Assembly: GCF_037042905.1 (NCBI RefSeq)
Contig: NC_087250.1
Coordinates: 26,414,001 to 26,478,000, forward strand
Source: Lytechinus pictus
Taxonomy: Eukaryota
Reading direction: 5' to 3'
DNA: 64,000 nucleotides
Position 1 is the first letter of the stretch, and each line of letters starts with the position of its first letter. Positions 1-56,993 of this stretch are shown in pieces. The notes beneath the pieces are model-generated. The model had not been told where the DNA came from. It saw nothing but the letters and a program-made list of their open reading frames with translations, and did not search any database. The position numbers were made by a program, and so were the translations under genes.

Positions 1-758
1 TATTTTCAAACCAGATAAAAAAAGTTTACTACTAATTGCCACCATATTGATATATGTTTAGATCTAGTACATTGAAATAAACTTAGCTTTGTGAAATCAT
101 GAAATCTTAGCTAAATACCAATAATTCTGATGATCACGAACACAAAAATGCATATGTGGGACAGTGTATTATTAATATTTTTGTTTAGATTGTTCTTTGG
201 GCCTGATGTTTCCATCATAAAATGATTAAAAGTGGCACATGACCGCCACGTAAAAAAAACATGATATAATTAAAAGTACAAGCTTTGATATCAAGCTAAT
301 TAAAAATGAATTAACACCTAAATATTTATATGTTGGTAGCTAAATGGTATGTGTTAGAGGGAGTGACTTCCACAGCCGAGCCGTCATTGGAATATATGAA
401 GATTGATGAAGAGAAGTATTTGACTTTGGGACAATGACTCTGTAGGGGTGGGCAGCTTGGAAAATACCCGACATTTTATGGAATTCCGTGCCTTTTATTT
501 CTGGGCAATTACATTTATTCTTACAATTAAACACTTCGGTAGTCATTTTATTGGATTCTGTTTGAAGTCATTTTGAGATCGTTACCACAATTTCCATTTA
601 TCTTTAACTGATGAAAACAAATATGAATATCCCATTTGCAATGCGGAATATAAATGTAAATATACATGTATACATATATACATATGTATTTGTATACATA
701 TATAATATCCTCTTTTAGAGTAGTGCATTATGGGAAATGACAATCGTATGTACTCTAC

Positions 759-871
759 CTAATATCTTGGCTACTCTGGCGTAGTTTCGCTCACTAATAT
801 TCGGCCATATTGCTTTCACGCCATCTTCTGCCGTGATAGCTGCTAGTGCATTTACTCCAGACGATAGCGTG
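759..871 (-). CDS. Copy A coding exon 9 (STLSSGVNALAAITAED...)
   Basis: 113 nt, Na2-site S/T motif. Confidence 0.9.
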
Positions 872-3800
872 CTGCAGAAAGGGATAAGATCGAAATATTA
901 AATGATTCATCTATGATTCATCTTTCTTCAATATTTATTTTTTGTCTTCAAAATTCTGATTTTTGTTATTCCCTTGTTATCATCCTTCTACGGATAACGG
1001 GAGTAAAACAAGAACAATCTGAAATTAGACTATTCATTTTTGAAATATAGTTCCATTTTTTGTATACACAAGAAAATGTTTCAACTGGCGCAATTAATGG
1101 TCTCCGAAATAGCGCATTTTTTTTCGTGAGACGAAATGGTTGTCAGGTTGCTTCTCCCCTAACCCTCAATCACTAATTGCCCGAGGGTTACAGGACATGG
1201 TATTATGAATAACCGTCAAAGAATACCGGTGCTATGAATTTCAAGAGTTTTTAATTTATCATTTCATTCATCTTTTTGCTTTTTCTTTTCCTTTTTTTCC
1301 TTTAACTTGTTTTCTTTTCCCTTTTTTACGTTGAATGTAAAGTGCAAAATATCCTTGTCCTTTTATATACTTGTCCATTTTTATGCAAATAAAGAGAATT
1401 GAATTGTGTATCAGTTAGCCTACCTCAGAGATGCACTGACAACTGATGCTAGAAATACACCAGGCAATCCGGGAATTTCGGCAAACATCTCCATCACAAA
1501 GAGAGGCATTATCTAAAAAAAAAAAATATATATATAACGAAATTCGATTCCGGAAAGTAGTTTATGGGGAAAATGAAATTTCAATATAAGAGGTGGCAAT
1601 GAACCGAGATGCAGATCAGCTCTAAATGATAGGAACTGAACTTAGACCTACGGATAAAGATGTAAACAAGTGTATCCAGCGGGCATTTTATGTAACGATT
1701 TTTGTAAGTGTTAAGGAGATCTTACAGCTTTTTCACCAAAGAGAACCTATCTACCCGATAGTTTATATTAAGCATTATATACCTGGTCACGTGACGAGAC
1801 GACCTTCGATTTCCATGGGTCGCAGTTTACGTAGTAGGCGTACATAACCAATCCAGAGAAGATGCATAGGGAAAGTATTATCCCCTTTAAGAGGACCGCG
1901 AGGAACAAGGCCCTACAGACATGAAAAGAAAATTAAAATTATTTCGAAACAAGAAAACAGATGTTGTTTTGTATGTTAACTATTTACTGTTTTGAGCTTA
2001 TGCCTGGAAATAATTTCAACAATTTGTTTTTCTATTCGGCATTTATATTGCATAAGATTTTAATATACTCATAAAGCCAAATATTTTAGTAAACAATACA
2101 ATAATACATTGAGCAGTGATTTATTCTTTATTATGATTTTTATTTATTTGTTGCTGTCTTGTAATTTCATATCTTTTTTATTGATTTTTTATTTATCTAT
2201 CTTTATATTTATTCATTCATCTATTTTGGTGGGGATTTAAAACATTTCTATGCACGGCGTTGGAAGAAAAAAAAATGCGCTGGAAATACCACTACCTCAC
2301 ACTTACCGTGTTTACATGTGATCGGCTTTTGGTTCAGAACCGCGAGCCGATGCGAATCGGCTTTTGGGTTTATCTTGCACCGCGTTTACACGCTGCATCG
2401 GCTCGCGGTTCAGAATCGGCTCGCGTGTCAAAAACCTGAAATGATCCGCGCACCAACAGTATACGTCATAATAAAGACAACGCTGGATCCATGCGCTTAC
2501 AAGTACGTCATAATGGTAAAGTAAATGAAATGCGCTTGAATTGCCGAGGCAGAATCGGCTTTCTGTTTACACGTAGAAAAAAAGCCGAATATGCATCGGC
2601 TAGCGGTTCTGAACCTGCTACTTTGGTGGTGCAAAATTGCCGATTCTGCACCGAGAGCCGATGCAAGTTAATCGCGTTTACACGCAATGAAAAAGCCGAT
2701 TCTGCATCGGCTCGCAGTTCTGAACCGCGAGCCGATGTAGCGTGTAAATTGTTACCCATACGCCTTGTCTCACCTGCACAATGTTTGGAAGTTACTTACT
2801 GTATGGCCCTGGGCTTGGTTCCACAAGCAATAAGGCGTTGAACCTCTATTTGGTTTGGTCTTGCCTCGGTAATGGTACCTCCTATCAACATAGTCCACAG
2901 TGTATATAGGATCCTCGGATCGGGGTTCCCCCTAAACAACAGTTAAACGAAAATTTAGAACGGCAGCCTACAGTGCATATCCTATTTTTTAGCACAATGT
3001 TGGCTAAATAAATTAAAACGATCGTTACAATCGCTTGTTCTGGGGAACAAAAGAGACGGTTGCAATTAGAATAATAGACATTTGAAGTTAACCCATCCCA
3101 CTGCAACAATAATTGGATATATTTATTTTTATTTATTTATTTTATTGAAATATATTTTTTCAGGAAAAACACAAGATCAGTATAAAAACACTGTTTTACA
3201 TCAGATTCCTAAAGGGTTAAAAAGTTACATCAAAATTCAAAAGTCAAAACTGATATAAGAATACGACCAGCTGCATATAATAAGCTAAAAATATATGAAT
3301 GACAATGGCAGTTCGTAATAACGCAATTTATTAATATGAATAGATGGTTAATTCAATACAACATATATATTTGTTGCTGAACACTATACATAAATGATTA
3401 ATATTAAAAGAAATTCACTCAATAATGAATAAACCAAAAATAATGGTTGACAATGATAATGATAGCTATTAGATGATGATAATAGTAATAATGATGATAA
3501 TAATTATCAAAATAATATGTTTAATGGCAACAAATAATCATATCAAATTCATGAGAAAATATGTGATTAGATAAACCTATGGCAATAAATAATCGAATTT
3601 AAGGGTAAAAAAGGTGGTTGCTTGATTATATCAATTAATAAATGAACGCAATTAATGGATGTACTTACAGAGATAAATGAATGCAAATGATTAAATAAGT
3701 CGATCATGTAATAACACAAATTAATATGTTAATCATTTCAAATGGGGAGTTGGTAAATTTGGCCAAAAAAAATATTTACTCTAGAAACTGGATCCGATCG

Positions 3801-3949
3801 CCCTGTTCAGCAATTTGCCAAACTTTGTCGAGACCGCCGACCACCATGGTCCCTTTGATGATTAGGGCGACGACACCGACGATCATGATGATTCCTTGGA
3901 GGGTGTCTGTCCACACGACTGCCTTCAAACCACCCTGTACACATACAGA

Positions 3950-3990
<41 letters not shown>

Positions 3991-6900
3991 GAAAGAAATG
4001 GATGAAGAGAACAATGGTAGGCGTAGCTTAAATCAAGGTTCCCCGGAGCTATCTGCCCTTTTTTGGAAAAAAATTGGTAATGCCGAAAAAAATGTCTCTG
4101 CCGGGAATCAAACCCGGGCCCTGTTACACCCACACATGTAATAATCGCCCACAAATGTAATAACGCCCACAAATGTAATAACACTTTACCCATAAATGTA
4201 ATAATTTCACCCACAAATGTAATAATGCACTTAACCCACAAATGTAATAATTTTTGATCGCCCACAAACATGACAAATGTAATAATGACTTTACCCACAT
4301 TTTGAAGGGATTTTTGGCGAATCCGTTTTAAACTAACATCCGATAGTAATGCATTCATATAGCACAAAAGTGCAAAGTCTTTTTTTCCAGACCCGGTTAA
4401 TGCAAAGATTATAATATAAGTCCAAACTAAGATACGATAATGATATTCCAGTGGAATAAAAATAAGAATCGAGCTCAGTCTTTTCTCCAGACCCAATTAG
4501 AACTGGTGGAATAAATGTATTTGTTGTTGTTTTAACTTATACGGCGCGTATTGTGAATATATGCGCTAAGAGTAAATTGAGAATCAAGCGTAGTCTTTTC
4601 TCCAGACCCGGTTACTTAAAACTAAAAACTAAAACCCTTTACCCACAAATGTAATAATGCACTTTACCCACAAATGTAATAATTTTTGATCGCCCACAAA
4701 TCTAATAATGACTTTACCCACAAATGTTATAAACTTGAAGGGATTTTTGGCGAATCTGTTCTAAAGTAAAACACTATAGTAATGTGTTCATATAGCTCAA
4801 AGTCACAGTCTTTTTTCTCCAGACCCGGTTATGTAAAACATCGTAACAGTTTAGCGTAGTCTTTCCTCCAGACCCAAATATTTCAAATAACAAATAAAAA
4901 ATAATAAACAATAATAAAAAAAAGACCCCACGATCTTATTAATTTTGAACAAAATGTAAAAAGAACAAAAACAGACCCTGCAATCTTTTCAACACTGAAT
5001 AGCGTGTGTGTGTGTGTGTGTGTATTTGAGTTTTGTCAGACGTGTATCAATCAGATATGATTATTTACGTCTGGGACCGACCTTTAACGTCACCATCCGA
5101 AAGACGTGACCAGGATTCGAACATCTGCATCAATTTGTAACTTCCCCACGTAGCTTGGATAACAGGCGCACGCCGCAACGCCCAGCATCGAAATATGGTG
5201 TAGTCTTTGTTCCAGCCCCGGTTATTTCAAAATAGCAAATCATAAAGAACAATATCAACAAAGACCCCACAATCTCATTGATGTTGAATAACTTGAAAAT
5301 ATAGCGTAGACTTTCTTCAAGACCCAGTTTTTTTTAAATAACAAATCATAAAAAAGATATATAATAATAATAAAACAAAGGCCCCACAATATATTGATGT
5401 TGAATAACTGTTGTCGTTGTTGTTATCTTTGGTTTTGAGGCGCGTACCATTCAGATATGAATATTCACATGGAAATATAGCGTAGTCTTCCCTCCAGACC
5501 CACTTATTTCAAAATTACAAATAATTTTAAAGAGTCAACAAGTAACAAAGACCACCACTATCTTATTAATGTTAAATAACATGGAAATATAGCGTAGTCT
5601 TTCATCCAGACCCAGGTCTTCAAATAACAAATGATGAATAATAATAATAAATAAATAATAAGAAGAAAAACAAACAAAAGAACCGCGATCCTATTTATGT
5701 TGAATAACATGGAAATATAGCGTAGTCCTTCATCCAGACCCAGTTATAAAAATCATTAAAAACACAACAACAACAACAAAACAAAGACCCTGCAATGTTA
5801 TCAACATTGAATAACATGGAAATATGGTGTAATCTTTGCTCCAGACCCAGTTATTTCAAAATAGGAAATTATCAGAAACAATAAAAACAAAAAAAAAACA
5901 ATATTTACAAAGACCCCCCAATATCATTGATGTAGAATAACGTTGTTGTTGTTGTTATTTTGGGTTTTAAGGCGTGTATCATTCAGATATGAATATTTAC
6001 GCCTATGATTAATTTGTCGTTTGTGGTATGCGTTATCATAAGGTTTTTATAGTTTGGAAGATGCTGGGGTCTAAGTTTAAAGATTAAAGTTTCGCTCAAA
6101 TTGTATTTTTAAGAGAACTGGGTGTGGGGTAAAGACAACACTCTTAACCCAAGCATTTTAACTGGGTTTAATTTTGAAGATTGGTCTTAGCTTTCATTTT
6201 TTGTTCCATATTTATTTATCTTTTAAAAAACCGGGTCTAGACGAAAGACTAAGCATAATACTCGTGTTATTCCACAGGAATAAGAATTTGACAAAGTCTT
6301 ATGTTTTTAAGATTGTTTGAATTATTTTTCAAATGACTGGCTCTGGAATAATGACAACGCTCTAAACATATGCTTTTCTACATAGTCTCAATCTGGAGGA
6401 TTGTTGGTTCTTAGATTCGTTGTTGGGGGTTGGGTTTTATTGTTTTATTTATTCTTGAAATAAATGTGTCAGGAGGAAAGTCTACAATCGATCTTCATGT
6501 TATTCCACAGTAATTAGATTATTGGGTATTCGTTTTAGAATATTTGTAAAAACTATTTTATTTTTTTCAAATAATAACCAAGTCTGGATAAAGGATGTTT
6601 GCTTTACCCATGCATTATTACAATGTTTTGTAGGGGTCTTAGTATCATTGAAAAAAAAAACTGGGTGTGGGGTAAAGACATATTTTTTTACTGGGTGTAA
6701 CTTTTGAAGATTGGTCTTAGATTTGAAGTTTTTTAAATTCATTTTGTAAATAACCGGGTCTGGAGGAAAGAGTACGTTTTAAAACTCGTGTTATTCCACA
6801 AGAATTAGAATATGATAGGGTCTTACGTTAGAATATTTTTTTTCGTAAGTTTTTTTTTTATGATTAGGTCTGGAATAAAGACAACGCTCTGAACCTCTTT

Positions 6901-8685
6901 TTAAAACAGGTTCTTAGGTTGAAAGATTGTTTGGTCTTAGATTTGGAATTTTTTAAGTATTACTATTAGCGTTAAAAAAAAATGGGTTTGGCTGAAAGAC
7001 TATGCTATATGTCCATGTTATCCAGCATTAATACGATTATGGGGTCTTTGTTTTTTTTTTTTTTTTGTATTGTTATTTATAATTTTGGAATAACAGGGTT
7101 TGGAGGAAAGACTAAGCTCGATTTTCATTTTTATTCCACTGGAATATCGTTATGGTATCTTAGTTTGGACTTATATTATAATTTTTGAAACAACCGGGTT
7201 TGGAAAAAAGACTTTAGACTTATATTATAATTTTTGAAACAACTGGGTCTGGAAAAAAGATTTTGCAGTTTTGTACTATATGAACGCAATACTATAGGGT
7301 TTTAGTTTTTAGTTTTAAGTAACCGGGTCTGGAGAAAAGACTACGCTTGATTTTCAATTTACTCTTAGCGCATATATACACAGTACGCGCCGTATAAGTT
7401 AAAACAACAACAAAGACATTTATTCCACCAGTTTTAATTAACTGGGTCTGGAGACAAGACTAAGCTCGATTCTCATTTTTATTCCACTGGAATATCATTA
7501 TCGTATCTTACTTTAGACTTATATAATAATTTTTTAAACAACAGGGTCTGTAAAAAAGACTTTGGACTAATATTATAAGTTTTGAATTAACCGGGTCTGG
7601 AAAAAAGACTTTTCACTTTTGTGCTATATGAACGCATTACTTTAGGATTTTAGTTTAGAACGGATTCGCCAAAAATCCCTTCAAATTTATTAAATTTGTG
7701 GGTAAAGTCATTATTACATTTGTGGGTGAAATTATTACATTTATGGGTAAAGTGTTATTACATTTGTGGGCGTTATTACATTTGTGGGTAAAGTGTTATT
7801 ACATTTGTGGGCGTTATTACATTTGTGGGTGCAACAGGCCCCCAGCTTTGAACGCCGGTGCCTTAACCACTAGACCACAGAGACGGGTTAGTGGCTAGGG
7901 CGACCCCGATCCGACTGATCGTCAGATAAACAGATTTTCGACACTAATACCAATTATAATTTCCTTTGTCGGATGTAGGTGGGTTTTGAACAATGACAAG
8001 CCGCCATTGTTATCTTCATCCATTCCTTTCACAAAATATTTAAAGGACAAGTCCACCCCAAGAAAAAGTTTGAATAAAAATACAAAAATCCAACTAGCAT
8101 AACACTGAAAATTTCATCAAATTCGGATGTAATATAAGAAAGTTATGACATTTTAAAGTTTCGCTTAATTTCACAAAACAGTTCTATTCACATCCGGGCT
8201 GGTATGCAAATGAAGAAAATATGACGTCATCCACTCACTATTTCTTTTGTATTTCATTATACGAAATATGAAATATTCTAATTTTCTCTTCATTGTCAAG
8301 TGATGCAACGAATAATTCCTCCCTGAACATGTGGAATTAGATTGTTTAATACTATATGGTCCAGTCAAGTTGGTCCTTATTGTTAAATGTATACAAAATA
8401 AAATATTGTACCATTCAAACAATAAAAAACCAAATAAATAGTGAGTGACGGACATCATCGATTGAGTCACCTAGTTGTACATATCACTGTTTTGTGAAAA
8501 ATAAGCAAAACTTTAAAATGTCATAATTTTCTTATTTTACATCCGATTTTGATGAAATTTTCTGCACTATGCTAGTTTGATTTTTCTTTATTTATTCAAG
8601 TCAGCATTTTCCTGGGGTGGACTTGACCTTTAAATAAAAGAGTTGCCAAAGCTGTTATACATGTCTAATTTTACACATTTATATA

Positions 8686-8773
<88 letters not shown>

Positions 8774-11700
8774 TGGGAATCATTCTTTAAAGCGTAATAC
8801 CGATCTGTGTAATATAATAAATTTGGGGCGCCATAGTCTAGTTGCTACGATTTTCGTTTTTCAATCAGAGGGACGTGGGTTCGAATCCCAGCCATGGCGT
8901 GTTTTCCTTCAGCAAGAAATTGATCCACACTGTGTTGCACTCAACCCAGGTGAGGTGAATTGGTACCCGGCAGGATTAATTCCTTTAATGCATGCTAGAG
9001 CTAAACCCGGGGTAATAAAAATAACAGAGATTAAAATCCTATTTGATATAACATGTACCATGTGTTTGACCTTTACTTTTTCACACAACTTTCTCATTTC
9101 CCTCTTTTTCAAGAGCATTCAACACATCCTTTTCATGAGAAAAGTTCAGTTTTCATCATGATGATCATATTGATCTCAATAAACATGGTGATTGTATTCG
9201 TGAGCATGCAAATCTGAGGCAGATCACCTAATTCGTCCTCATGACGAATAAAAATTATAGTTAATATATATTTTTTTTTGCAACACTCCGCAAATTACTC
9301 TTATTTATTTGTGAAATACTCCTGGATGCTTACCACTGATGTATAAAATATACACACTATTCCAGTCGAAAGGATACATGTCCACAGATCAAATCCAGTA
9401 ACTATGGCAACCAAATGAAAAAATAAAATAAAAGGGAAATTAATGGAAATAACACGTTGGATTTTTTTTTTTGTGGGGGGGGGGTGGAGTCGTGATATGT
9501 GCAAACGCCGGGATATGTGCAAACAACGGTATATGTGCAAAATTTTGCCGGGATTTGTACAAACAACGGAATTTGTGCAAACGCCACGCCGGTAAATGTG
9601 CAAATCTGTCAAAATTTATCAACGGCATCTGTGCAAACGTGACGACGGGATATGTGCAAATGAACAATTTTCACGGGAAAATTGCAAACCTCCGGAATAT
9701 GTGCAAATCACTGCATTTATCCATATAAAGGCTATTTCTCATGAAATGTTTCAGTCATAAAAAAAAATTGTTAAAAATGAGAAACATGCCTGCATAAGGG
9801 AGAAGCTACAATGACATCGGCAATGAAACGCTTTTCAGAAAGGCGGCGGGGGGGGGGGGGGGCACCAACCTTAAATTGAAGACCCACTATCGTTTGGAAT
9901 AACATGGATGTAGAGTGTAGTCTTTTAATGCTCCAGACCCGGTCATTTAATCATTTGAAGATCCTTCTGAACTAAGATCCTGTACTAAAGCATGCATAAG
10001 GAGCATAGCCATTCAAAAATAATAAAAAAAACTGCAACACCTCACCGTCTACCAAATTAAGACCTTGTAGAAATGAATATAGAATGTATTCTTTACCCTA
10101 GACCTTGTTGTGTCAATAACAAAAAAAAATCAAATATAATACCTCACCGTCTAATTCCTATCGAATAAGTTGTTGTTGCTGTTGTTGTTTTAGCTTATAC
10201 GGCGCGCGTCATTCATTAGTGAATATTTGCGCCAAAAAAACCACATCCACCGAGCCGGATTCGAACCAGCGACATAAGGTTAATCATCAATCATCTACAG
10301 TCCTCCGCTCTACCAACTGAGCTATCGGTGGTTACTAGGTTTAAAGTGTAGTTTTTGCTCCAGACCGGGTGATTAAAAAAATTCTAAACTATTTAAGCCC
10401 CGCCATCTTCCACTACTAAGACTCTGTTATGAAGAACGTGTATATAACGTATTCTCAATTCTCCAGACCCGTTTATTTAAACAAATTTTCAAGACCCCAC
10501 AGTCTCATTCCTGTGAAAAAGATGGATATAAAGCGTTGTGTTTTCTCCAGACCTTTGATTAAAAAACCTTCAGAATTAAGACCCAAGACTAATGGGGCGT
10601 TGCAAGAAATTTACGTTGCAATTGATTGCAAATCGACTGCAACTTTGCAGCCGATTCCGATCGACTGCAACTAGCAATCAATCGCCAATTTGCGTTGCAA
10701 GAAAAAGGCTTGCGATTGAACGCAAGTTGCAGCTGATCTGCAGACGATTTGCAGCTGTAAACAGGGTCTGCAGCACAAGACTAGCCGAAAAAGCAAAATA
10801 ATGGCTTGCAACAATCCTGTTTGTGGAAGAGAGTAAGTAGAAAATATTCATTTTTCAGACAATTCTTTCTCCATTATGTATGTTTTTAGAGAATTTATAT
10901 ATTTTAGACCTATGCCAGTGAAAAAAATTATTTTGAAAAAAGTGAAACTGTATCTTTATCGCCGGTCGAAATTTCACCTTCAACAAATTTTCTACCGTAC
11001 AATTTCAATCCCAGTCCCACACTTGACTTTTTGTGTCGGTAATGCACGGTTGTATCAACAACACGGCAGGTCATTGCCGGTGCAGTGCTGTTAAAAATCA
11101 CCCAGAAGCAAGTAAATGTGTAGGCTCTAATTATGTATGAAACATCGAAAATGACCTTCAAAGATTATTTTTGTGCCTATTTGAAATGATTTTTTAAGTT
11201 ATATCGGTTTCAACGGAGAATAGCCATCCAGTAAATAGAAATTAAAGACTTCCATTACAATTTACAGTCTAGACATTTCCAAAAAAAAAAATTCCTCTCC
11301 ATTTGTCTCTCTTTTTTTATGAGTCTGTCTAACGTTACCTCGAGCGAAGTTCGTGCAGGCCCTACTCCACTTCACTACCGCTACACTACGCTCCACCTAC
11401 CCGAACTTCGAGACTGAACTCTATCTGATATTCCGAGTGACAAAGGTGGGATTTTATGGGGGGGGGGGGAAATATAAAATTCATGCAACATCACGATCTT
11501 TAAAAACAATTCAAACTAATATTCTTACTTTACACCAAGTTTCACTTTTTCATGCTTCTATCAGTCTCAAAATTGGTGATTTAGAGCCAACATGAAGTTC
11601 CTCACACAAATAAATAATTTGCTGCCGTATCGCGCGTGCATGCAATGTTTTGAAATCGGCAGTGAATTATTTATACGTGTGAGGAACTTCATGTTGGCTC

Positions 11701-17700: not shown

Positions 17701-20700
17701 GAAAGTAAAAAGTCAGCGAGCAGCGCGGTCAAAAAATTTTGCGCGACGAAAATATCGCGCGACTCTTTGAGGGGGGAGGGGGGCCTCCGAGCCCCCCCCC
17801 CCCCCCCGGCCTAGATAGGGTTAAAGGGGCGAGAGGAACATTTTTAAAGGATTTTTATTATTTAAATATGCACTTTTAGAAGAGATAAGAACACGAAATA
17901 AGGAAAACGGGCAATGACAGGGCATGAAAAGAGCGGTTTTAAGGAATGGAAACTTATCTGATACGAGATAGGGCACTTATATTTATAAAAAGATAAAGGG
18001 GCACACTTTAACACATAAAACAGGTCCTTCTAAGATGAAAGGGGCAAAGTTATTGGGTTATAGTTGTTGTAAAATCGAGGTGTATGAATTGCAACCTAAA
18101 AATATTTCATTTAGAGAGTAAAGTGCATCGCATTTGTGGGTATATAGTTCAAAATTAATGCCTCTTGTTGGTAAAGTGCGCTAGTATGACATGATTGTGT
18201 GGGAAAATATTTTTATATACGTTAGTGGGTACAGTTTTTTTACACATGTGGCTGATATTACACAAGCTTGCGTCACTTTGGGTGTGTTTAAAGAGATAGG
18301 AAACAATGTCTTGTTTGAATGTTCATAGATTCATAAAAAAGTAATATCAAATGGCATAGTAATCAAGACATTTTGGGTTTATAATTAAATTTTAAAGAAA
18401 TTCGACAACTTCTGATGAAATCTGGAAATGAAATCAACAGATAAAGTTCAATGTGTGTATCAGTGGAAATAATGCTTGCCTCTCCCACCCCCTTTAATAA
18501 TTGCCCCATGCAGTGTTCGAAACAGTACTAAATGTCCCTTTAAGGTGACACGACATATACTGCTGCGAAAATTGCGACAATTAATATCTCAGAAGGCATA
18601 GGATTAGTGTTAGGATTGTGATAGAGTTTTTGTTTCAGAATATTGTCATGATTACGATTAGGGTGTATTTAGTTTTTGAGGTTAGCTTTTATGTTTCGCT
18701 TAATGTTTAGAATTTCCATCGGAGCAATTGTCGCCAGAGCAAATGTCCACTAAGCCTGGTGCCCCCCCCCCCCCTCCACTGCCTCTCTAAAAAGCGTTTC
18801 ATTACCGATGACACTAGCTGTAGCTTCTCCCTTATGCAGGCATGTTTCTCATTTTAACAGTAATGTTATGAAACATTTCATGATAAATGGATAAAAACAG
18901 TAATTTGCACATACCCCGGAGGTTTGCACTTTTCCCGTGAAAATTGTTCATTTGCACATATCCCGTCGTCACGTTTGAACAGATGCCGTTGATAAATTTT
19001 GACAGATTTGCACATTTCCCGGCGTGGCGTTTGCACAAATTCCGTTGTTTGCACAAATCCCGGCAAAATTTTGCACATATACCGTCGTTTGCACATATCA
19101 CGGCGTTTGCACATATCACGGCTCCACAGGGGGCTAATTATTATTTGCTATATATTTTTCCCCTTTTTACATTGAAACTAAAATGTTTTGAGGGGGTAAT
19201 TATTTATTTAGCTAGATGTTTGGCAACATATACATTGCGCCATCCAAATAATTGCATTAGTAAATTGGGTCTTAATCACACGACTATACTACAAACATTA
19301 ATGCATTATGGGTAAGGCACCTGGCAAGTTTTCAGGAGTTGATTATTGTTTATTTTGAGTAGTGATGTACAAGGCCTTCAGTTGGAATTTGCTTTAAATT
19401 GAGAGGTGTGCAGTTTAAGACATAAGCCCACCAAGAAATGAAGAAGACATACCTGCATTCAACGCTATTGCAGGTGTGTAGACCACAGATCCCAAATAGA
19501 ACAGCTGTACCGTGACAAGTATGGTAAGGCGAAAATCAAAATGAGCGTATGATTACACAATAGTATTGATGATCTTACGAACAAAGTGAAATATAAAGAG
19601 GGAAATGGAAAAATAATAACTCTTCTACTACTACTACTACTACTACTAATAATAATAATAATAATAACGATAATAATAACAATAATAATAGCAAAAAAAA
19701 TATTATAATAATAATAATAATAGCAAAAATAATGATAGTAATGATAAAACAATAATAATTACAGTATAAACAATAATGATTATAATAGTAACAATAATGA
19801 AAATAATAATACTGACAGTAATATTAACAATGGTAATGATAATAGTGGCAAATTGTTGAGCGCACACTGATCGCCAGAGATCCCGATGAGTGCTAGTTCC
19901 AATGGCGTATGCTGGGGAAACGTGCCACCTCCCGCTGTGGCAGAGGAGTTCCGACACTAGCAAACACAACAAAAATTATACCCATTTTATTGTTTTCAAC
20001 AGCTGATTTTCCAAACTTTAGTTTCATCGCCTTAAGATGCCCCCCCCCCCCCATAATACTTAAGATACACCTCTGCATGGTGTGCACCTCTCCATGCTCA
20101 AACAAGCCTACGCCCTGGAACCCAGGAACGATGTTCTCTCGTTCACATACCTTCCGAAAACAATTAATGTGTAAAACATAAATATGTTACACTTTGTCAA
20201 CAAACCCAAGCAAAAGGCGAACTAAGAAAAAAAAAAAATAGCATAAAGCATTTCTTACCCTATTCTGCACTTTTCACATTTTTAAAGGCATGAACCTTGT
20301 ATTAATGTAGCTATTGCTTTCCAAATTATTGACCCATAATCATTGTTTCTATATGCTTTGCATATTCGATGATGTTGTAAATATTCATTGTAGCCTAAAT
20401 TAATTGTAAATATCATGTGTAAACTCATACACCTAGAGCTGGTCGATATAGAAGATAAAATTGTACGTTATCTTATCTCATAAACGAGCTTCAGATATAG
20501 AACAAAGTCATATAATTTTCAAAAATTGGGCTTGCAACGTTTACTCACGTCACGACGCGCTACCACGTTCGATTACCTTCATAAAAACGCGTCGTCTATT
20601 GCACAGGAGGAAGGGTCTACACTTTGATATTTTGCACGCCGGTTAATCACGAAATATATAGCTTGTTAGTAAAAGACTATCACGACGCCACTCACCAAAA

Positions 20701-22125
20701 TACACCCGCAGAAAGCTCGCAATGTATGTTGGCAACCAAACATGCAACTTTGGCCTATGTCATCATCCTTTAAATAAACTTTCATAATTTTATTCTTATT
20801 TCACATACTGGTAACCTATGAAGCAGTTCAATCTCAGATCATAATGTGCCTTGCATGTGTTGGTAACTGTTTATGGTTTACAGAATCGAATCCGAAAAGA
20901 ACCTGTGCAGGGCGGTCGGTCGGATACAGCGCCGAGGGTGTTGGACTGTTCTCAATGACAATAAACTTGTATTGTGCTAACGAAACGCGATGTTTACGTG
21001 AGGATGATGCATATCCTAACGCTTCGTAGATTAGAGGGATTTTAAAAAACAAATTTACGCAGCGAGCTGCGGCGTGATTACGTGAGTAAACGTTGAAAGC
21101 CTAACGTGTGAGGCTTGGGACGTGCGAACAATCTTCGCCGGGCTGATGCTATACCGTCTGTGCTACTCTACTGCCAATCAAGGTTAACTAAACTTTTATG
21201 AAGTGTACACATACCGTAAAAGATGAAAAAGCTATGTTTGTTATCAGTCGTAAGGCTTTGTTGAAACGCATTTCAAAAAACTGTGAGAAAGAAAGATATT
21301 AACATGAATAATTGTTTCTTTTACTACCTTTATTTTCTGAGGGAAATATAAAATAAACGTACAACCATAACACTGCATTTGTCTTGTCAATTAAGACAAT
21401 TTAGATTGAGAAGAACCTAAATTAAAACCATTTACAAAAAAAGTCTTTGAAAATACCAGTTTCTTAATTGTAAGCGCTCTATGAATAGGGACTGACGATA
21501 AAGTATTTTTTTCCTCTCATTTTCGTCTTTGTATCGGTATTATTTTAATTTTTTTTTTTTTGGGGGGTGGGTTCTTCACTTTTTTCTTCTTCGTCGTCGT
21601 TATCATCTTCTTCTTCTCCTCCTTTTTCATCATCTTTTTTTTTTTCTTCTTCTCCTCCTCCTCCTTTTTCTTCTTTCAATCTCCCCCCCCCTCCTCTCCG
21701 TCACTATACAATTTCAACACCATAAGAAAGATAACAATTTATCGATCGTGTCGATGGTTGCTCACCTCATAAATACTAATGACGTTTATTCTAAGGAAAG
21801 TAGGCAGGAAAAGGCGACAAAACAAGACATCTCCTAGGGCATCTGTCACCATTATCCAGGAAAACATAGTCCCGTATACATAGATCTCACCAGGCATTGA
21901 TATTACAGCTATTGCAGATATATAGCTCACCGCCAGGGACATCGCAACAGGGAAAATACCCATTTTTCGATTACCCACTAGGAATTCGTCGGCCGTCTTT
22001 TGCTTGCCGCCGGAGCAAGCGGAGTACACACCGATAGACGCGGACACAAGAAGCATCGCACCGAAGACGACGTAGTCCCACACACTGAAATAGCGGGGGC
22101 CTGAATCGAGTCCTTGTTGATCCAT
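759..22125 (-). CDS. SLC5A8-like: SLC5/SSS sodium:solute symporter, copy A, coding exons 1-9 (3' part outside window)
   Basis: Exons: 21766-22125, 21215-21280, 19453-19504, 9334-9401, 3780-3934, 2800-2931, 1783-1912, 1424-1512, 759-871. Same exon sizes as copy B, intact splice sites, no stops; 10 aa differences in ~388 aa by hand count. Confidence 0.92.
1424..1512 (-). CDS. Copy A coding exon 8 (IMPLFVMEMFAEIPGLPGVFLASVVSASL)
   Basis: 89 nt, PGLPG motif. Confidence 0.9.
1783..1912 (-). CDS. Copy A coding exon 7 (ALFLAVLLKG...YVNCDPW...RDQ)
   Basis: 130 nt, CDP motif. Confidence 0.9.
2306..2752. mobile_element. MITE with GAGCCGATGC subrepeats, shared by both copies (B ~48789-49172)
   Basis: Internal direct and inverted repeats; GTTTACA/TGTAAA ends. 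Confidence 0.65.
2800..2931 (-). CDS. Copy A coding exon 6 (GNPDPRILYTLWTMLIGGTITEARPNQIEVQRLIACGTKPRAI)
   Basis: 132 nt, tag acceptor and gtaagt donor. Confidence 0.9.
3780..3934 (-). CDS. Copy A coding exon 5 (GGLKAVVWTD...RIQFL)
   Basis: 155 nt, SSS signature motif. Confidence 0.92.
4122..7836. mobile_element. 3.7-kb non-coding foldback DNA transposon, TGT..ACA ends, 5-bp TSD GGCCC
   Basis: TSD at 4117-4121 and 7837-7841; empty site in copy B at 53293-53297. Outer CCCACAAATGTAATAA subrepeats; inner ~110-125-bp CCAGACCC units that invert near ~6050. Confidence 0.9.
5004..5186 (-). mobile_element. SINE with 7SL(SRP RNA Alu-domain)-like head, B-box, Deu-domain-like core and (CA)n tail
   Basis: Minus strand begins GCTGGGCGTTGCGGCGTGCGCCTGTTATCCAAGCTAC, then GTTCGAATCC and GTCTTTCGGATGGTGACGTTAAAGG. 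Confidence 0.7.
8044..8629. mobile_element. MITE with TTAA TSD and AGG..CCT ends (Kolobok-like), copy-A specific
   Basis: TIR AGGACAAGTCCACCCC/GGGGTGGACTTGACCT; single TTAA at the empty site in copy B (~55670). Confidence 0.85.
8825..9030 (+). mobile_element. tRNA-derived SINE (other copies at ~55794-55990 and ~32795-33270)
   Basis: A box, GGTTCGAATCCC B box, shared body CCTTCAGCAAGAAAT..CACTCAACCCAGG. Confidence 0.8.
9334..9401 (-). CDS. Copy A coding exon 4 (VTGFDLWTCILSTGIVCIFYTSV)
   Basis: 68 nt, tag acceptor and gtaagc donor. Confidence 0.9.
10246..10331 (-). tRNA. tRNA-Tyr(GTA) with 13-nt intron, probably a pseudogene or retrocopy
   Basis: CCACCGATAGCTCAGTTGGTAGAGCGGAGGACTGTAG-[atgattgatgatt]-AACCTTATGTCGCTGGTTCGAATCCGGCTCGGTGGA. 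Perfect 7-bp acceptor stem, A/B boxes, T7 run just downstream; one anticodon-stem mismatch. Confidence 0.8.
11336..11845. mobile_element. MITE with 9-bp TSD (Mutator-like) and an internal long palindrome
   Basis: TIR TACCTCGAGCGAAGTTCGTGCAGG; TSD GTCTAACGT/GTCTACCGT; hairpin ~11518-11769. Confidence 0.8.
12324..12748. mobile_element. MITE with 8-bp TSD CTACTATG (hAT-like)
   Basis: CCGGGG..GTACT and AGTAC..CCCGGG ends; TSD at 12316-12323 and 12749-12756. Confidence 0.75.
17045..17820. mobile_element. piggyBac-like MITE
   Basis: TTAA|CCCTATCTAGG ... CCTAGATAGGG|TTAA. Confidence 0.85.
19453..19504 (-). CDS. Copy A coding exon 3 (LFYLGSVVYTPAIALNA)
   Basis: 52 nt, AG/GT flanks. Confidence 0.9.
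19625..19850. repeat. (ACT)n/(AAT)n low-complexity tract, probably a retroposon tail; paralog at 56938-57165
   Basis: Directly visible. Confidence 0.85.
20529..21102. mobile_element. TIR element shared by both copies (B ~57822-58394)
   Basis: GGCTTGCAACGTTTACTCACGT is inverted as ACGTGAGTAAACGTTGAAAGCC. Confidence 0.6.
21215..21280 (-). CDS. Copy A coding exon 2 (FFEMRFNKALRLITNIAFSSFT)
   Basis: 66 nt, cag acceptor and gtatgt donor, YLELRF-like motif. Confidence 0.9.
21766..22125 (-). CDS. Copy A coding exon 1 (MDQQG...ISIYE)
   Basis: ATG at 22125, 360 nt, donor GAG|GTGAG. Confidence 0.93.
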
Positions 22126-23362
22126 GATGATGACTGTGGATGTAATGATTAAAATGAGCTATGGGAATGTTTATTTAAACAAAATTAGGCAGTTCTAAAC
22201 AGTAATAATAATACTATAAATTGCATGTCTGAATAAATTGTCACTGTTTTACCCTCCTTTGGATGACTGAGAGAAAAGGGGAAATATGGTTCAAAAGTGT
22301 GGCCAAATATGCGTGTAAAACGGGCCTTATTTTCTTGTTGGCATTCATGCCCAAAATATCATAAGCCATAAGTATGAAATTAAAGTATGAATATTAGTCA
22401 AGGGTTATAATGGTTAAGCTGTTCCATTGCGTTTCTGGTATACTTTCGACCATATTTGGACATGATAACTATAATATGTAAAGCTTCCATTGGCATAGTA
22501 GCATTACATTTACTTCAGAGTGTTTGATTCTTTTCTATTGAAAAAAAGTGTGGAAAAACTAGAAAAATGCTGTTAAAAATCACGCATTGAAAATAAACCT
22601 TTTTTTTTTGCAATATCCGCAGCATAATCACATATCATAATGAGTTACATCGGAATCAGAACAATATAATTGAGCCAACATTTAAGCCAAGACCCCCCCC
22701 CCCCCCCCAACTCTTGCCTCTGAGATAGTAAAAACGGCAGGAAAATATAGCAGGAGCAAATGTCTTGTCGCACCAGAAAGTCCAATACTGCACCTTTCTT
22801 TCGCTCTTTACACCCGAAATTACCCATTGCTGCTATGGTCGCATCCTCTTTTTCACGATCTTTGCTTTTCGTTAATGATGCAAATTTGTAATTCTCTTAA
22901 AAGATACAACGATGAATGCACCCAAAAATGGTGTAGTGAAGCTTTAGCTATGGATGAACAACGACCCCACTGTATAACAGTGGAAGGGTGTCAATCTAAC
23001 CTTTATTTATTTAATAGTACGCAGGCCCTTTTATATTTTAAGTCTAAACTGATATGGGTTAATTATGGCTAAAACACAATGAAACGCATTTCTAATTAGG
23101 TCTGTTGACCTGGATATCACAAGCATACTGAAAAAGAAACACAAAAAATAAGACCGAAGATGCATTTCTTTTTTCATTCTAAAACATGAAAATTAATGAT
23201 CCTCTTTCAGTTTAAAACAATGATTGAGACTAACCTGAAATTAGAGGGGAAATTCAAGAGAAAAAAAGATTAAAAATCATTATGTATTTTTCTCTGTAGG
23301 CGTATCCCGCCACAAGCCTAAGCTTTTAGGGTATACGCCTTCTTCTTTAAACCCAACATATA

Positions 23363-41000: not shown

Positions 41001-44000
41001 TCAGATGAAAGAGGAGATTTGAAGCTTTAAATTGGTAGGTCATTTGTCTATTGTATTTGTGATTAAGTTATGATAAATCATCGCTTAATCTCGGTTTCGT
41101 TTTTTCTGGGACGCACTGTATGTTGGCAGCTAAATGGAATGTGTTAGAGGGAGTGACTTCCACAGCCGAGACGTCATTGGAATATATGAAGATTGATGAA
41201 GAGAAGTATTTGACTTTAGGACAATGACTCTGTAGGGGTGGGCATCTTGGAAAATACCCGACATTTTATGGAATTCCGTGCCTTTTATTTCTGAGCTATT
41301 ACATTTATTCTTACAGTGAAACAGTTCGGTGGTCATTTTATTGGATTCTGTTCGAAGTCATTTTGAGATCGTTACCACAATTTCCATTTATCTTTAACTG
41401 ATGAAAACAAATATGAATATCCAATTTGCAATGCAGAATATAAATGTATATATGTTTGATAAAAATCAATGAATCTATCTTGTCGTATGAAAATGAGCAG
41501 GTAAAGACTAGGTCTGAATTATCATTTTTAAAGGTCAAGTCCACCCCAACAAAGTGTTGAATTGAATCAATAGAGAAAAATCAGACAAGCACAATGCTGA
41601 AAATTTCATCAAAATCGGATGTAAAATAAGAAAGTTATGACATTTCAAAGTTTCGCTTATTTTTAACAAAATAGTTATATGAACGAGCCAGTTACATCCA
41701 AATTAGAGAGTCGATGATGTCACTCACTCACTATTTCTTTTGTTTTTTATTGTTTGAATTACACAATATTTCAATTTTTACGAATTTGACGATTAGGACC
41801 TCCTTGCCTGAACCACAAAATGTTAAAATAATGGAATTCCATGTATTCAGGGAGGAATGAAACTTCATTTCACATGACAATGACGAGAAAATCAAAATAT
41901 TTCATAATTCATATAATAAAATACAAAAGAAATAGTGAGTGATGTCATCAGTTCCCTCATTTGCATACCGACCGGGATGTGCAAATAACTCTTTTGTGAA
42001 ATGAAGCGAAACTTTAAAATGTCCTAACTTTCTTATTTTACATCCGATTTTGATGAAATTTTCAGTGTTATGCTTGTTGAATTTTTCTGTTTTTATTCGA
42101 ATCAAGTTTTTGTTGGGGTGGACTTGTCCTTTAAATACAGGAAGCTAGATGATACAACTATGGCCTTGGTTTTGTTATATTGCGAATGCACTATAGCTTT
42201 CTCCCTATCATGCTCTACTTATCATAGATACTTGAGAAGGCATGCTTGTATATGATTTTTAAATCTCTACTTTTTTCATACAAAATTGAGCAGATGAAAA
42301 TATTCAGTGGTTTATAGCATAGAAAACCGAATGGAAAATGAACTTTTTTGAGAAATTACTCATGAATAAGAGGAGAAAATGAAAGGTTCTTTTGATGAAC
42401 AGAATGATCTTGATAATATATGCAAAACAAGTCATATATTTCTTGCGTAATTGGAATTTCATATCACTTAATAACATTTGTTTGCTAAAAACAGGTTAAT
42501 AAAGTAACTAATTCATGTAATTTGAAACTTTGTTAAAAAGTAAACTGTTTAGGTTTATTTCACTGAAGAATTTATACACACTTAGTTTTCAGAAGCATAA
42601 CACGTTTTAATGTGTTTTTTGTTTCTTCATTATATTGCATTTTCCCTTTGCAGGTAGCTTTTTTAATAATCGGACACAGAAACGTATATCATTTTTTTTG
42701 TACGAAAAATAAAAAATGAAATAATCTGAAAATTGACACATTTATATTTAGATGTACATAATATCTTGGAGATATATTTTTTTATTTGCTCGCATCTTGA
42801 ATGAAACGAAATAAAAATCCTTGTTATTTTATCCTTGAAATATAAATGAATTATGCAAGATTTGCGTGATAGAATAAGAGTAAAATCATGTTTCTTCTGT
42901 ATGAAGAATGATAAAAGAAAAGAAGATCGAGAATAAAAAAAAAATTGCATTTTTTGCATTCAACATTTTTCAAATCTGCCTACGAATATGTTTTGCTTAT
43001 TTTATTTTATATTTTTTTCATTAAAAGATGCTTAAAATTGAAGAAAGATGATGTTTTGAAGATGTGTTGGATTGAAAAAAGGGATAGCTTAAAAGTTTTA
43101 TCCTTTAGCATATTTTTATGTATCCATCATCGTCCTATGTTATCTGAGTTATTTTCGTAATGCTCTTTTCTTTTTGCCTACGTACATTAAACAACCTGTA
43201 ATTATTATCGCTTGCATATAAATATGCCCAGTTTGTATATTGCGAGTTTTGTGACCTTTTTTCTGTACACCTTATTTAAAAAATAAAAAAAGCTTAGACC
43301 TTTTCTATCGAATCATTTTAATGGTGGCATGAAGAACACAATGGCAATGATACTGGCAAACAGTGATGTTTTATTCAACAGCTTTTTATTGTGTCTTTCA
43401 GCGACATTGCTTTACATGTTTGTATTTTACTTTTTGGTGGTAACTTTTGTCTTCAACTCTTACTTGTCTTTGTATATAGGAGCATATCATTCAGAATGCT
43501 TTAAACTTTGGTACATTATGCAGGAGCCGTGTAGACATTCCGTAACATGTAATAGGCCTAAATTTTCCAGATGTTCCTTTTGTTACAATGGATTCATATA
43601 TCGATATACGTCTGTTATTTTGATCAATTGCAATGTTCTACTAAAGATAACATTTACAGTCTCTGCTATGTACGCATTTACCTTTGCATTCTTCCGAATA
43701 TTTGTGCTATGCCGATGAGTATGGATGTTTTCCCAATGCATTCTTTAGATGAGAATAAATTTACTTCCTTGTTTAACAATTCACAACCCCAGTTTCTTCC
43801 TAGTCACGGAGATGGTGCAGATAACTTTGAAGAAAGTATTTCTGAACAGCTAAATCGTGAAATGCAATCTCTTTCCGTAACAATCGATCCTAACGACCTT
43901 TTATCACCAATATCTGAATCTACATACCTGACTGAAAATGAATTTGTTAAAGAATCTTCCGCGTTTAAAAAAAATATGTCTTTCTTCCAGTTTAATATTA

Positions 44001-47000
44001 GAAGCCTCTCAAGAAATCTGGACAATTTCAAATCATTTCTTGACAAATTATCTTTTGATTTCTCTGTTATTGGGTTATGCGAAACCTGGCTGACTGATGG
44101 AAATTATCCATTACATCTTTTCATGCTTTTAGATAGGTATACATATTTTGGGAATAATCGAAAAAACAAAACCGGTGGAGGTGTGGGATTGTACGTCTTA
44201 ATCCAGTTTCAAACGAAGTCTTTAGAGGAATTAAATCAAATGTCAAACGTTGCTGAAACTGTTTTTGTTGAAATTATTGTCCTAAGAGGGAAAAATATTG
44301 TAATTGGTGAAATTTATAAACCACCTCAAGCAAATCCTCTTGATTTTTTTGAATTACTTGAGGGCCTTTTATCTGCACCAACTCTAGAACATAAAGTATG
44401 CTTTATCATGGGAGATTTTAATTTAGATCTCTTGAAATGTAACTCGTGTAATGTATGTCAACAATTTTATGATATAATGCTTTCGAAATCGCTTTTACCT
44501 TTAATTAACAAACCCACTCGAATATCTTATGTATCTTCAACCCTTATAAATAACATTTTTACAAATGTTGATCAATGCTTAAGTTCCGGAATTATTATCA
44601 GTGATATGTCTGATCACTTCCCCGTATTTACTTTTTTCCCAACCCCCGACCATATCATAGACTGCTCCAGGTCTATGACCCGTAACTTTTCTGAAGACAA
44701 TTTATACAAATTTAGAGAATGTTTAGCACAAGCCGACTGGTCTCAGGTGTACACAAATTCCGACCCTAATGAAGCATATAATATTTTTGTTAACAGGCTT
44801 CTTAATTTGTATAATACCAACATTCCTTTGAAGTCTTCATCTCGGAACTAAAAAAAAAACTCCGAGATCTCCCAGGATCACTACGTCTCTTCTTCGTTGT
44901 ATTAACCGGAAAAATCGTCTCTTTTATAAGCACAAAAAAATTAAATCAGATCAAAGTAAACGTCGATACTCTTCATATCGTAATACCCTTACTACTTTAC
45001 TTCGGACCGCTAAAAAGAATTATTTTTCTAGACAATTTGAAGAAAACAAATATGATGTCTCAAGTACGTGGAAGGTGATAAACGATGTTCTAAATAAAAA
45101 ACAAAATCACCATATATTTCTACAATTATGATCAACAGCTCCGAAAATAGAAATCCAATGTTGATTGCTGAAACATTTAATGATTATTTCATAAATATTG
45201 GCCCAAATCTTGCCCGCGGCATTCCAACTTCCGATGTTGATTTTCGATCGTTTTTAAAAGAACCAAACGGTCAATCTATATTTCTTACTCCCATTACTTC
45301 TCGTGAAATTATGATCATTGTTAAAGATTTGAAAACTAAAAAAAGCTCTGGGTATGATAATATTACGAATTTTCTTTTGAAGAAGACTATAAATGAAAAA
45401 ATACAACCGCTAACTTATTTATTCAACTTATCTTTAATAACTGGGGTAGTACCAGAAAAAATGAAAATATCAAAGGTCATACCGATACATAAGAAAGGTA
45501 ATAAACATGATATTGGAAATTATCGTCCCATTTCGCTCTTAAGCTCTTTCCAAAATTCTTGAAAAAATAATATACTCCCGCAATGTTAATTTTCTATATA
45601 AATATAATATTTTATCGAAGGTTCAATTTGGTTTTAGAAAGAAACATTCAACTACCCATGCATTATTGATGTTTATAGATAAAATAGATACATCAATAGA
45701 CGCCTTTTCTCATACTGTTGGTTTATTTCTGGACTTCTCCAAGGCCTTTGATACAATTAATCATGACATTCTTATTTTCAAATTATCACATTATGGAATA
45801 CGTGGAAAGGCCTTGGAGTGGTTCAGAAGTTATCTATCTAACCGTCAGCAGTTTGTATGTATTAACAATCAAGAATATCATAAAAAAAACTTATTACATG
45901 CGGAGTGCCACAGGGGTCTTTACTAGGCCCTTTATTATTTCTCATTTACATTAATGACTTTCAAAATTGTTCTAATATTATTTCATTCCTTCTGTTTGCA
46001 GATGACTCCAATATATTTATCTCTCACAAAAATCCTCAAACTCTCTTACAAACACTAAATCATGAACTGATTTCTGTTCTTAACTGGATACATTCCAATA
46101 AATTGTCTCTAAATATCAATAAATCAAATTATATCTTATTCAGTAATACGATCGCTAATTTACCCGGACCTGTATTTTTAAACAAAACATCTTGTTAAGG
46201 TTGACATGACAAAATTTCTTGGCGTATATATCGACAGAAAATTAACTTGGAAAGCCCACATTAATCACATTAGTAAAATTATATCCAGAAATGCTGGTGT
46301 CATTTGCAAACTTAAGTCATCTTTTCCCACCCGTGTCTTGTTATGTTTATACTCCACTCTAATTTTGCCGTATTTAAATTACGGTATCCTTTCTTGGGGG
46401 AACAGTTCAAAACTTCATATAAATAAAATTTTACTTATCCAAAGAAGACTAATAAGAATTATTAATAATACAAGTTACCGGGCTCATTCTATGCCACTCT
46501 TTTATTCATGTAATGTTCTACAAATCCATGATCTTTATGCATTTAACCTTGGAATATTTATGTTTCAACTCTCAATAAAAGAATTACCTACTACCGTATC
46601 TTCTCTATTTAGAAAGAATGACGAGATTCATAGCTATCCTACTCGTCAAAGTCATTATTATCATCTTCCACGTACTCGTACAGCTTTTTCATTCTAAACA
46701 AATGTCTAAACGACAATTCATCGGCTCCCTAGTGTTCCTCTTAACTATTGTCAGTCCACCTCCCTTTGCTTTTTTTCCTTCTTTTTATCTCCTTCTTTCT
46801 CTCGTTTTTTTAGGAAATATATATATATTTTTTCTCTCTCTCTTACTCTTTCTTTTCTTGTAACATATTGATATTAAAACAAGTTGACAATTACTTATAA
46901 TTTTATTAATAGGGAAACTATAAATTACAAGCTCTGCTTTTTAAATAGTTTGCCCTTCATATTCTCATCTTATTGATATATCTGTCTCCAATCCAAACGT

Positions 47001-56937: not shown

Positions 56938-56993
<56 letters not shown>

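What the first reader, a model, noticed from the sequence alone, without database searches (positions are those of the whole stretch)
5004..5186. Candidate 7SL-RNA-derived SINE in an invertebrate genome
Seen: the minus strand starts GCTGGGCGTTGCGGCGTGCGCCTGTTATCCAAGCTAC. This matches the recalled 5' end of human 7SL (GCCGGGCGCGGTGGCGCGTGCCTGTAGTCCCAGCTAC) at 28/37 ungapped positions by hand count. A B-box (GTTCGAATCC), a Deu-domain-like segment (GTCTTTCGGATGGTGACGTTAAA) and a (CA)n tail follow. Knowledge: I know 7SL-derived SINEs from Euarchontoglires (Alu/B1) and hagfish. Inference: this may be an independent origin in an echinoderm-like genome.
Basis: partly seen in the sequence, partly recalled or inferred. 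Interest (0 to 1): 0.8.

Follow-up and report, generated by a model that had tools for sequence, protein, structure and literature searches.

The report
Sea urchin SINE with 7SL head
This is one copy of a multi-copy short jumping element in a sea urchin whose first 47 bases match the front end of signal-recognition-particle (7SL) RNA, an origin the papers searched report only for Alu-type elements of a few vertebrates; it likely arose by swapping the head of an older tRNA-type element and is predicted to use that piece to reach ribosomes.

Summary
Observation confirmed. Window 5186-5004 (minus) is a 183-nt element inserted into a tandem array whose other units lack it. Nt 1-47 match the 5' Alu domain of Rfam Metazoa_SRP (E 6e-5; no tRNA or 5S hit) and keep the U-turn triad, the loop-loop GGC/GCU and the closing stem. 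A tRNA-type B box, 28 nt like the start of the Deu domain, a 3' hairpin and (AC)10 follow. In public runs of two species labels, hundreds to thousands of contigs and reads match; many join head to body and stop at 5185 with unrelated flanks. Four metagenome relatives share the body (85-92 of 100) under other, tRNA-type heads, so the 7SL head is likely a swap. A neighbouring exon is 98% identical to a Lytechinus protein. Unlike Alu, B1, Urop and the hagfish SINE1, only the 5' domain is kept: the piece shown sufficient for Alu mobility. Not shown here: match to the host's own 7SL gene, copy number, partner LINE, Pol III transcription, SRP9/14 binding. No published report found; Repbase and Dfam not searchable. 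This scan noted the same family many times elsewhere in this genome.

The parts
5140..5186 (-). 7SL (SRP) RNA 5' Alu domain, element nt 1-47
   Evidence: Rfam Metazoa_SRP alignment; 12 of 14 model pairs are standard or G-U; family contigs end at 5185
5173..5182 (-). A-box-like stretch inside the 7SL head (nt 5-14)
   Evidence: Same position as box A of human and hagfish 7SL in PMC7245038; promoter function inferred
5122..5139 (-). Spacer between head and B box; likely junction with the tRNA-type parent at nt 47/48
   Evidence: 9 of 10 identity to L007 just past the junction, weak alone (81 of 1000 shuffles score as well)
5112..5121 (-). tRNA-type B box (nt 66-75)
   Evidence: Sequence; shared with L004-L007; same 10-mer in the window's tRNA-Tyr
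5083..5110 (-). Piece like the 5' start of the Deu domain
   Evidence: 23 of 28 columns identical to AmnSINE1 in Fig. S4 of PMC7245038 (by eye)
5037..5073 (-). 3' stem-loop, predicted recognition site for the partner LINE
   Evidence: -13 kcal/mol, z -4.08, 0 of 200 shuffles as good; mostly kept in L004-L007 without compensatory change
5004..5023 (-). (AC)10 tail
   Evidence: Sequence
5001..5003 (-). GCT, also found at 5186-5184: at most a 3-nt duplication, overlapping the element's own start
   Evidence: Filled versus empty array units
4900..6000 (-). Diverged tandem array (units about 110-130 bp) that is the insertion target; the unit at about 5872-5769 shows the empty site
   Evidence: Self-BLAST, alignment A2
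5959..6004 (-). Older tail-only relative of the same 3' end, with an AAC-type tail
   Evidence: 83% over 48 nt, E 6e-8
5428..5468 (-). Second tail-only piece, likely a duplicate of 6004-5959 made with the array block
   Evidence: 80% over 44 nt; block 5186-5468 matches 5708-6000
4122..7836 (.). 3.7-kb foldback element that holds the array and the SINE; 5-bp duplication; splits a tRNA-derived repeat
   Evidence: Inverted arms 4148-4641 and 7829-7293; ends and duplication

Best explanation
This is one copy of a multi-copy short retrotransposon (SINE) of a Lytechinus sea urchin whose first 47 bases match the 5' Alu domain of 7SL RNA and are joined to the body of a tRNA-type SINE family, likely by a head swap, and whose RNA is predicted to bind SRP9/14, dock on ribosomes and be copied by a LINE that recognises its 3' hairpin. 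Shown: head identity by Rfam, insertion into an array, many copies with a common 5' end, the same body under other heads, host genus. Inferred: a template switch or recombination replaced the tRNA 5' half up to just before the B box; RNA polymerase III uses the A box in the 7SL head with the inherited B box; the head folds as the Alu 5' pseudoknot and delivers the RNA to ribosomes making LINE reverse transcriptase; the 3' hairpin and microsatellite tail are used in target-primed reverse transcription with little or no target duplication. This copy differs from the family majority at 6 places and likely belongs to an older branch.
For: Head: Metazoa_SRP best match, E 6.1e-5, confident for nt 1-47 only; 30 of 37 columns equal the Rfam consensus and 25 of 30 equal the hagfish SINE1-1_EBu start (by eye). 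The majority letter in other copies at 5175 (74 of 90 reads in X22; 29 contigs in X2) and 5161 (124 of 129 reads; 66 contigs) restores the Rfam consensus letter. G4, U23, G24 and loop triplets GGC/GCU, named as needed for SRP9/14 binding in PMC12265939, are present; the closing stem has U3-A45 where the Rfam consensus has C-G. Family: 3362, 2369, 1842 and 315 records laid in four runs, of two species labels; 12 of the 24 listed pieces run from 5070 or lower to 5165 or higher; loose ends behind 5185 in 15 contigs of X2 (flank agreement 0.46), 6 of X8, 19 reads of X22, 1 contig of X18. Swap: 4 of 9 loci from pattern scans share B box to tail at 85-92 of 100 columns but only 15-20 of 43-44 head columns; head scores no better than shuffles (52 to 991 of 1000 reach them) and L006, L007 carry a tRNA-type A box. 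The junction falls at the end of the domain that PMC11760393 shows sufficient for SRP9/14 binding and retrotransposition (46 nt). Host: exon 98% to L. pictus, 96% to L. variegatus proteins.
Against: The host's own 7SL gene was not seen: no genome is held and no listed loose end continued as 7SL. Depth falls steeply toward the head (X2 summed word depth 1.1e6 on the body, 5.5e3 at 5166-5179; X21 about 1,600 against 85 reads), so most body copies may be truncated or carry other heads; seeding at this copy's private changes and the tool's human-like filter could also cause it. The head alone folds worse than shuffles (z +1.2; 187 of 200 as good) and the predicted minimum-energy fold has only the first hairpin right. 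The family majority has U, not C, at nt 37, and a 2-nt deletion there in 15 of 142 reads. RNA reads lie on both strands equally and show no common start. No LINE 3' end in the window matches the tail. The heads of L004-L007 are not called tRNA by Rfam or ARAGORN. The tail hairpin shows no compensatory change in 5 sequences.
Confidence: 0.65

Rival explanations
1. Same origin, different use: the 7SL piece was captured by a template switch and serves only as a source of an A box and a 5' end for polymerase III; SRP9/14 binding plays no part, and mobility rests wholly on the 3' hairpin that the tRNA-headed parents also use.
For: The same body spread under at least three other heads, so it needs no 7SL head. 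The head lacks the 3' half of the Alu domain that all published SINE1 keep. Majority U37 and a deletion variant in the second loop. A break at the end of a folded domain is also where a reverse transcriptase would stall.
Against: The kept piece equals the experimentally minimal SRP9/14-binding domain; triad, loop triplets and closing stem are intact; majority letters at nt 12 and 26 follow the SRP consensus.
Confidence: 0.28
2. The head is not from 7SL but from a decayed tRNA 5' half or another small RNA that resembles 7SL by chance.
For: Score 26.4 bits is far below the gathering score; host 7SL gene not compared; only 47 nt are involved.
Against: E 6.1e-5 over all Rfam families with the match starting at model position 1 and at the family's 5' end; no tRNA or 5S match; no likeness to the tRNA-type heads of relatives; 25 of 30 identity to the hagfish 7SL-derived start.
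Confidence: 0.05
3. A one-off chimeric retrocopy, an assembly error or vertebrate Alu contamination.
For: Only one full copy in the 64-kb window.
Against: Dozens of distinct contigs carry the head joined to the body, with different flanks, in runs of several studies and two species labels; the flanks are a sea-urchin array with an empty-site unit; the 3' part of Alu is absent.
Confidence: 0.01

Closest known systems
SINE1-1_EBu (Ebu1-1) of the hagfish Eptatretus burgeri (Kojima 2020, PMC7245038; main text parts 1-3 of 4 and all of supplement 1 read)
   Same: 7SL-derived head fused to parts of an older tRNA-headed SINE; microsatellite tail; proposed non-L1 partner; start 25 of 30 identical.
   Different: Hagfish head keeps 7SL 5' 96 nt plus the 3' end (140 nt, whole Alu domain, 7SL's own B box), has bipartite RTE tail, AAC repeats and ~17-bp duplications. 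Here 47 nt only, tRNA-type B box, Deu-like piece, hairpin and AC tail, duplication at most 3 nt, invertebrate host.
Alu, B1, Tu (Euarchontoglires) and Urop of the shrew mole (PMC13023118, passages)
   Same: Begin at 7SL nt 1 with the SRP9/14-binding 5' domain.
   Different: They are 7SL with a ~183-nt central deletion, poly(A) tail, moved by L1. Here no 7SL 3' part, no poly(A) tail.
Engineered minimal Alu domain SA46/AY46 (PMC11760393, passages)
   Same: The 46-nt 5' domain that binds SRP9/14 and supports retrotransposition in HeLa cells is the piece kept here.
   Different: A laboratory construct under a CMV promoter with L1 ORF2p; this is a natural family with its own B box and a structured tail.
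DeuSINE superfamily, e.g. AmnSINE1, EbuSINE1, sea urchin SINE2-3_SP (PMC4824008, passages; Fig. S4 of PMC7245038)
   Same: First ~28 nt of the Deu domain right after a B box.
   Different: Far shorter than the 70-330-bp domains described; head is 7SL, not tRNA or 5S. SINE2-3_SP itself was not available to compare.

Membership tests
SINE1 (7SL-headed SINE, Repbase class) | 5' head derived from 7SL RNA, starting at nt 1 | tested here: met
   Rfam Metazoa_SRP from model position 1, E 6.1e-5; family 5' end at 5185
SINE1 (7SL-headed SINE, Repbase class) | Head derived from the host lineage's own 7SL gene | not testable with these tools
   No genome held; no 7SL continuation among listed loose ends; earlier scan notes claim it, unchecked here
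SINE1 (7SL-headed SINE, Repbase class) | Dispersed multi-copy family with uniform chimeric structure, not a plain 7SL retrocopy | tested here: met
   12 of 24 listed pieces join head and body; unrelated 5' flanks; no copy number obtained
SINE (general) | Internal polymerase III promoter, A and B boxes | tested here: inconclusive
   Both motifs present, 51 nt apart; no common transcript start in RNA reads
SINE (general) | 3' end shared with a partner LINE | tested here: inconclusive
   Hairpin and microsatellite tail present; no matching LINE end in the window; genome not searchable
SINE (general) | Insertion signature (empty site, target duplication) | tested here: met
   Empty array units beside the filled one; duplication 0-3 nt
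Alu/B1/Urop/Ebu1-1 structural type | Keeps both 5' and 3' parts of the Alu domain after a central deletion | tested here: not met
   Rfam alignment beyond nt 47 has low confidence and broken pairs; that part is shared with tRNA-type relatives instead
Alu/B1/Urop/Ebu1-1 structural type | SRP9/14-binding features: U-turn triad and loop-loop complementarity | tested here: met
   G4, U23, G24 and GGC/GCU present in sequence; binding itself not tested
DeuSINE superfamily | Central Deu/Nin domain of 70 bp or more | tested here: not met
   Only about 28 nt match, 23 of 28; shortest described domain 70 bp
Catalogued repeat family (Repbase, Dfam, SINEBase) | Identity to a listed consensus | not testable with these tools
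   No such library available; Repbase curator's 2024 text limits SINE1 to primates, rodents and hagfishes

The most novel reading that the evidence does not exclude
The first invertebrate 7SL-derived SINE, a fourth independent origin, and a natural version of the minimal 46-nt Alu module: a portable ribosome-docking head grafted onto an existing tRNA-type SINE that raised its mobility with a hairpin-recognising, non-L1 LINE. Head-swapped sister families in one genome would let the benefit of SRP9/14 binding be measured directly.
Probability: 0.55. Interest if true: 0.85.

Novelty: new variant of a known kind. Interest (0 to 1): 0.72.

Why it matters
7SL-derived SINEs are described as extremely rare and confined to supraprimates, one shrew mole lineage and hagfish, all keeping the whole Alu domain through a central deletion. 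A sea urchin family with only the 5' domain would extend the class to invertebrates, show that the central-deletion route is not required, and give evolutionary support to the 46-nt minimal domain defined in cell culture. Because the same body exists under tRNA-type heads, the long-standing question whether SRP9/14 binding is what makes 7SL heads successful becomes testable with matched pairs, in a laboratory sea urchin genus.

Tried and rejected
Whole-genome copy count and host 7SL comparison: no genome held. Rfam at gathering threshold missed the element. Spacer pattern found nothing in metagenome or viral contigs; head and tail patterns nothing in viral contigs. Of 9 loci from the body pattern, 5 (L001-L003, L008, L009) match only 19-22 nt and were dropped as chance. 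No RNA holder was listed on record, and no listed run held half of the words (best 0.23); not used as evidence. Summed contig depths were not turned into a copy number, as the tool warns against it. Laying the head alone did not reveal the host 7SL among the listed loose ends (30 not shown; the tool drops human-like reads). An A>G difference at 5164 in RNA reads but nearly absent in DNA contigs was not read as editing: different individuals, and one strongly expressed copy could explain it. A long target duplication was looked for and not found. Free folding of the head gave no support. Look-ups of earlier findings by sequence and by relatives were blank. Paper searches for sea urchin or echinoderm 7SL SINEs, SINE1 in invertebrates, Lytechinus repeats and sea urchin SRP RNA gave no report of this family (listings only unless named as read). 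Supplement 2 of PMC7245038 and supplements of genome papers were not opened; repeat libraries there could hold the family unnamed.

Full report
Observation. A scan of 4800-5400 against all Rfam families gives Metazoa_SRP as the best of 7 matches, from model position 1 at 5186, 26.4 bits, E 6.1e-5; scaled to 64 kb that is about 6e-3. The score is below the gathering score of 70 (one search misses it) because only about the first 47 nt align with confidence. No tRNA or 5S model matches here. By eye, 30 of 37 columns equal the Rfam consensus, and 25 of the first 30 nt equal the start of hagfish SINE1-1_EBu as printed in the supplement of PMC7245038.

Anatomy. Nt 1-47 (5186-5140) fit the model's 5' Alu domain: 12 of 14 pairs are standard or G-U, and the closing stem has U3-A45 where the consensus has C-G. 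G4, U23, G24 and the loop triplets GGC and GCU, which PMC12265939 (passages) ties to SRP9/14 binding, are present. Free folding of the head gives no support: 187 of 200 shuffles fold as well. A B box lies at 5121-5112. 5110-5083 equals the start of the AmnSINE1 Deu domain at 23 of 28 columns (by eye), but no more of that domain is kept. 5073-5037 is a hairpin that 0 of 200 shuffles match, followed by (AC)10.

Insertion. The element interrupts one unit of a diverged tandem array; neighbouring units show the empty site. GCT stands at both ends, but the element itself starts with these letters, so the duplication is 0-3 nt. The array lies inside a 3.7-kb foldback element (4122-7836, 5-bp duplication) that in turn splits a tRNA-derived repeat.

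Host. An exon at 59424-59065 (Pfam SSF) is 98% identical to a Lytechinus pictus protein and 96% to L. variegatus, 64% to Diadema. The host is a Lytechinus sea urchin.

Family. No genome was held, so I used public runs (best share of words 0.23). On 4900-5290, 3362 and 2369 contigs of two DNA runs, 1842 RNA reads and 315 contigs of a run with a second species label were laid; 12 of the 24 listed pieces (6055 not shown) run from 5070 or lower to 5165 or higher. On the head alone, loose ends behind 5185 appear in 15 contigs of X2 with flank agreement 0.46, 6 of X8, 19 reads of X22 and 1 contig of X18: a shared 5' end at 7SL nt 1-2 with unrelated flanks. This copy differs from the majority at 5115, 5116, 5123, 5150, 5161 and 5175. 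At 5175 and 5161 the majority restores the Rfam consensus letter (74 of 90 and 124 of 129 reads in X22); at 5150 the majority departs from it. Depth drops steeply toward the head; truncation, other heads, seeding and the tool's human-like filter cannot be told apart. I give no copy number; earlier scan notes say about 1,000-1,900, unchecked here. RNA reads fall equally on both strands with no common start, so independent transcription is not shown.

Origin. A body pattern found 9 loci; 4 from metagenomes are true relatives. They match from the B box to the tail at 85-92 of 100 columns, but at only 15-20 of 43-44 head columns, no better than shuffles. L006 and L007 carry a tRNA-type A box; Rfam and ARAGORN do not call these heads tRNA, so 'tRNA-type' rests on the boxes. 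Their hosts are unknown. The simplest reading is that the body is older and that the 7SL piece replaced the tRNA 5' half. At 5116 and 5115 this copy agrees with all 4 relatives against its own family majority, which suggests an early branch.

Mechanism (inferred). Polymerase III would use the A box in the head and the inherited B box. The head would fold as the Alu 5' pseudoknot and bind SRP9/14, bringing the RNA to ribosomes that make LINE reverse transcriptase, as proposed for Alu; PMC11760393 (passages) shows that a 46-nt 5' domain binds SRP9/14 and supports retrotransposition in HeLa cells. The 3' hairpin and microsatellite tail would be read by a partner LINE; none matches in the window, and the hairpin shows no compensatory change in 5 sequences. 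The main rival keeps the origin but makes the head a mere A-box donor.

Comparison. It works like Alu in its head and like hagfish SINE1-1_EBu in being a chimera with an older SINE (PMC7245038, parts 1-3 of 4 and supplement 1 read). It meets the class definition of SINE1 as far as testable, but not the structural type of Alu, B1, Urop and Ebu1-1, which keep the 3' part of the Alu domain. It is not a full DeuSINE. PMC13023118 (2026, passages) and PMC10886601 (passages) list 7SL-derived SINEs only from supraprimates, shrew moles and hagfish. Searches listed no report from an invertebrate; Repbase, Dfam, SINEBase and most subscription journals were not searchable.

Earlier scan notes. The scan reported this family many times in the same genome (106 notes hold the words 7SL, head, SINE, invertebrate). 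I took from them the head-swap, minimal-domain and partner-hairpin readings and tested the first two here in part; their copy numbers, host-7SL match and partner LINE are not checked here and are not counted as evidence.

Verdict. Real, multi-copy, 7SL-headed SINE in a sea urchin; new variant of a known kind; interest 0.72.

Noticed in passing
window 4122-7836: 3.7-kb foldback element with long inverted arms, internal tandem arrays, TGTT...AACA ends and a 5-bp duplication, inserted in a tRNA-derived repeat (intact copy near 53183-53351). Ends resemble Ginger-type DNA transposons (label recalled).
   Followed up: partly
window 5959-6004, 5428-5468 and 5004: Older tail-only pieces with AAC tails and the full copy all end at the same position of the array unit; 8 RNA reads in X22 show a head with the same array as 5' flank but 5 different letters. 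Possible target preference, or an allele or duplicate of this locus; most other 5' flanks are unrelated.
   Followed up: partly
window 5116 and 5150 (other copies): Subfamily variants: a 7-nt duplication in the B box (115 of 941 reads in X21) and a 2-nt deletion in the second loop of the head (15 of 142 reads in X22).
   Followed up: no
L004 290-474, L005 290-500, L006 290-520, L007 170-390: The same body carries at least three different heads and different tails (CA, CCAA repeats) in metagenome contigs of unknown hosts; L006 has a 20-nt and L007 a 9-nt internal duplication.
   Followed up: partly
window 53269-53340: ARAGORN calls a tRNA-SeC here, but the stretch has further partial copies (4006-4121, 7835-7895) and is more likely the head of a tRNA-derived repeat.
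   Followed up: no
window 10246-10331: tRNA-Tyr gene with an intron-sized insert; the array motif also occurs just upstream (10380-10346).
   Followed up: no
window 19129-22698 and 56450-60001; 667-3954 and 47158-50353: Local segmental duplications (88% and 92%), the first holding an exon of a sodium-coupled monocarboxylate transporter-like gene.
   Followed up: partly
window 43562-47150: Broken LINE with endonuclease and reverse transcriptase domains; its 3' end does not match the SINE tail.
   Followed up: partly
window 53359-53784 and 55420-55502: 15-bp minisatellite (28 copies) open in several frames.
   Followed up: no
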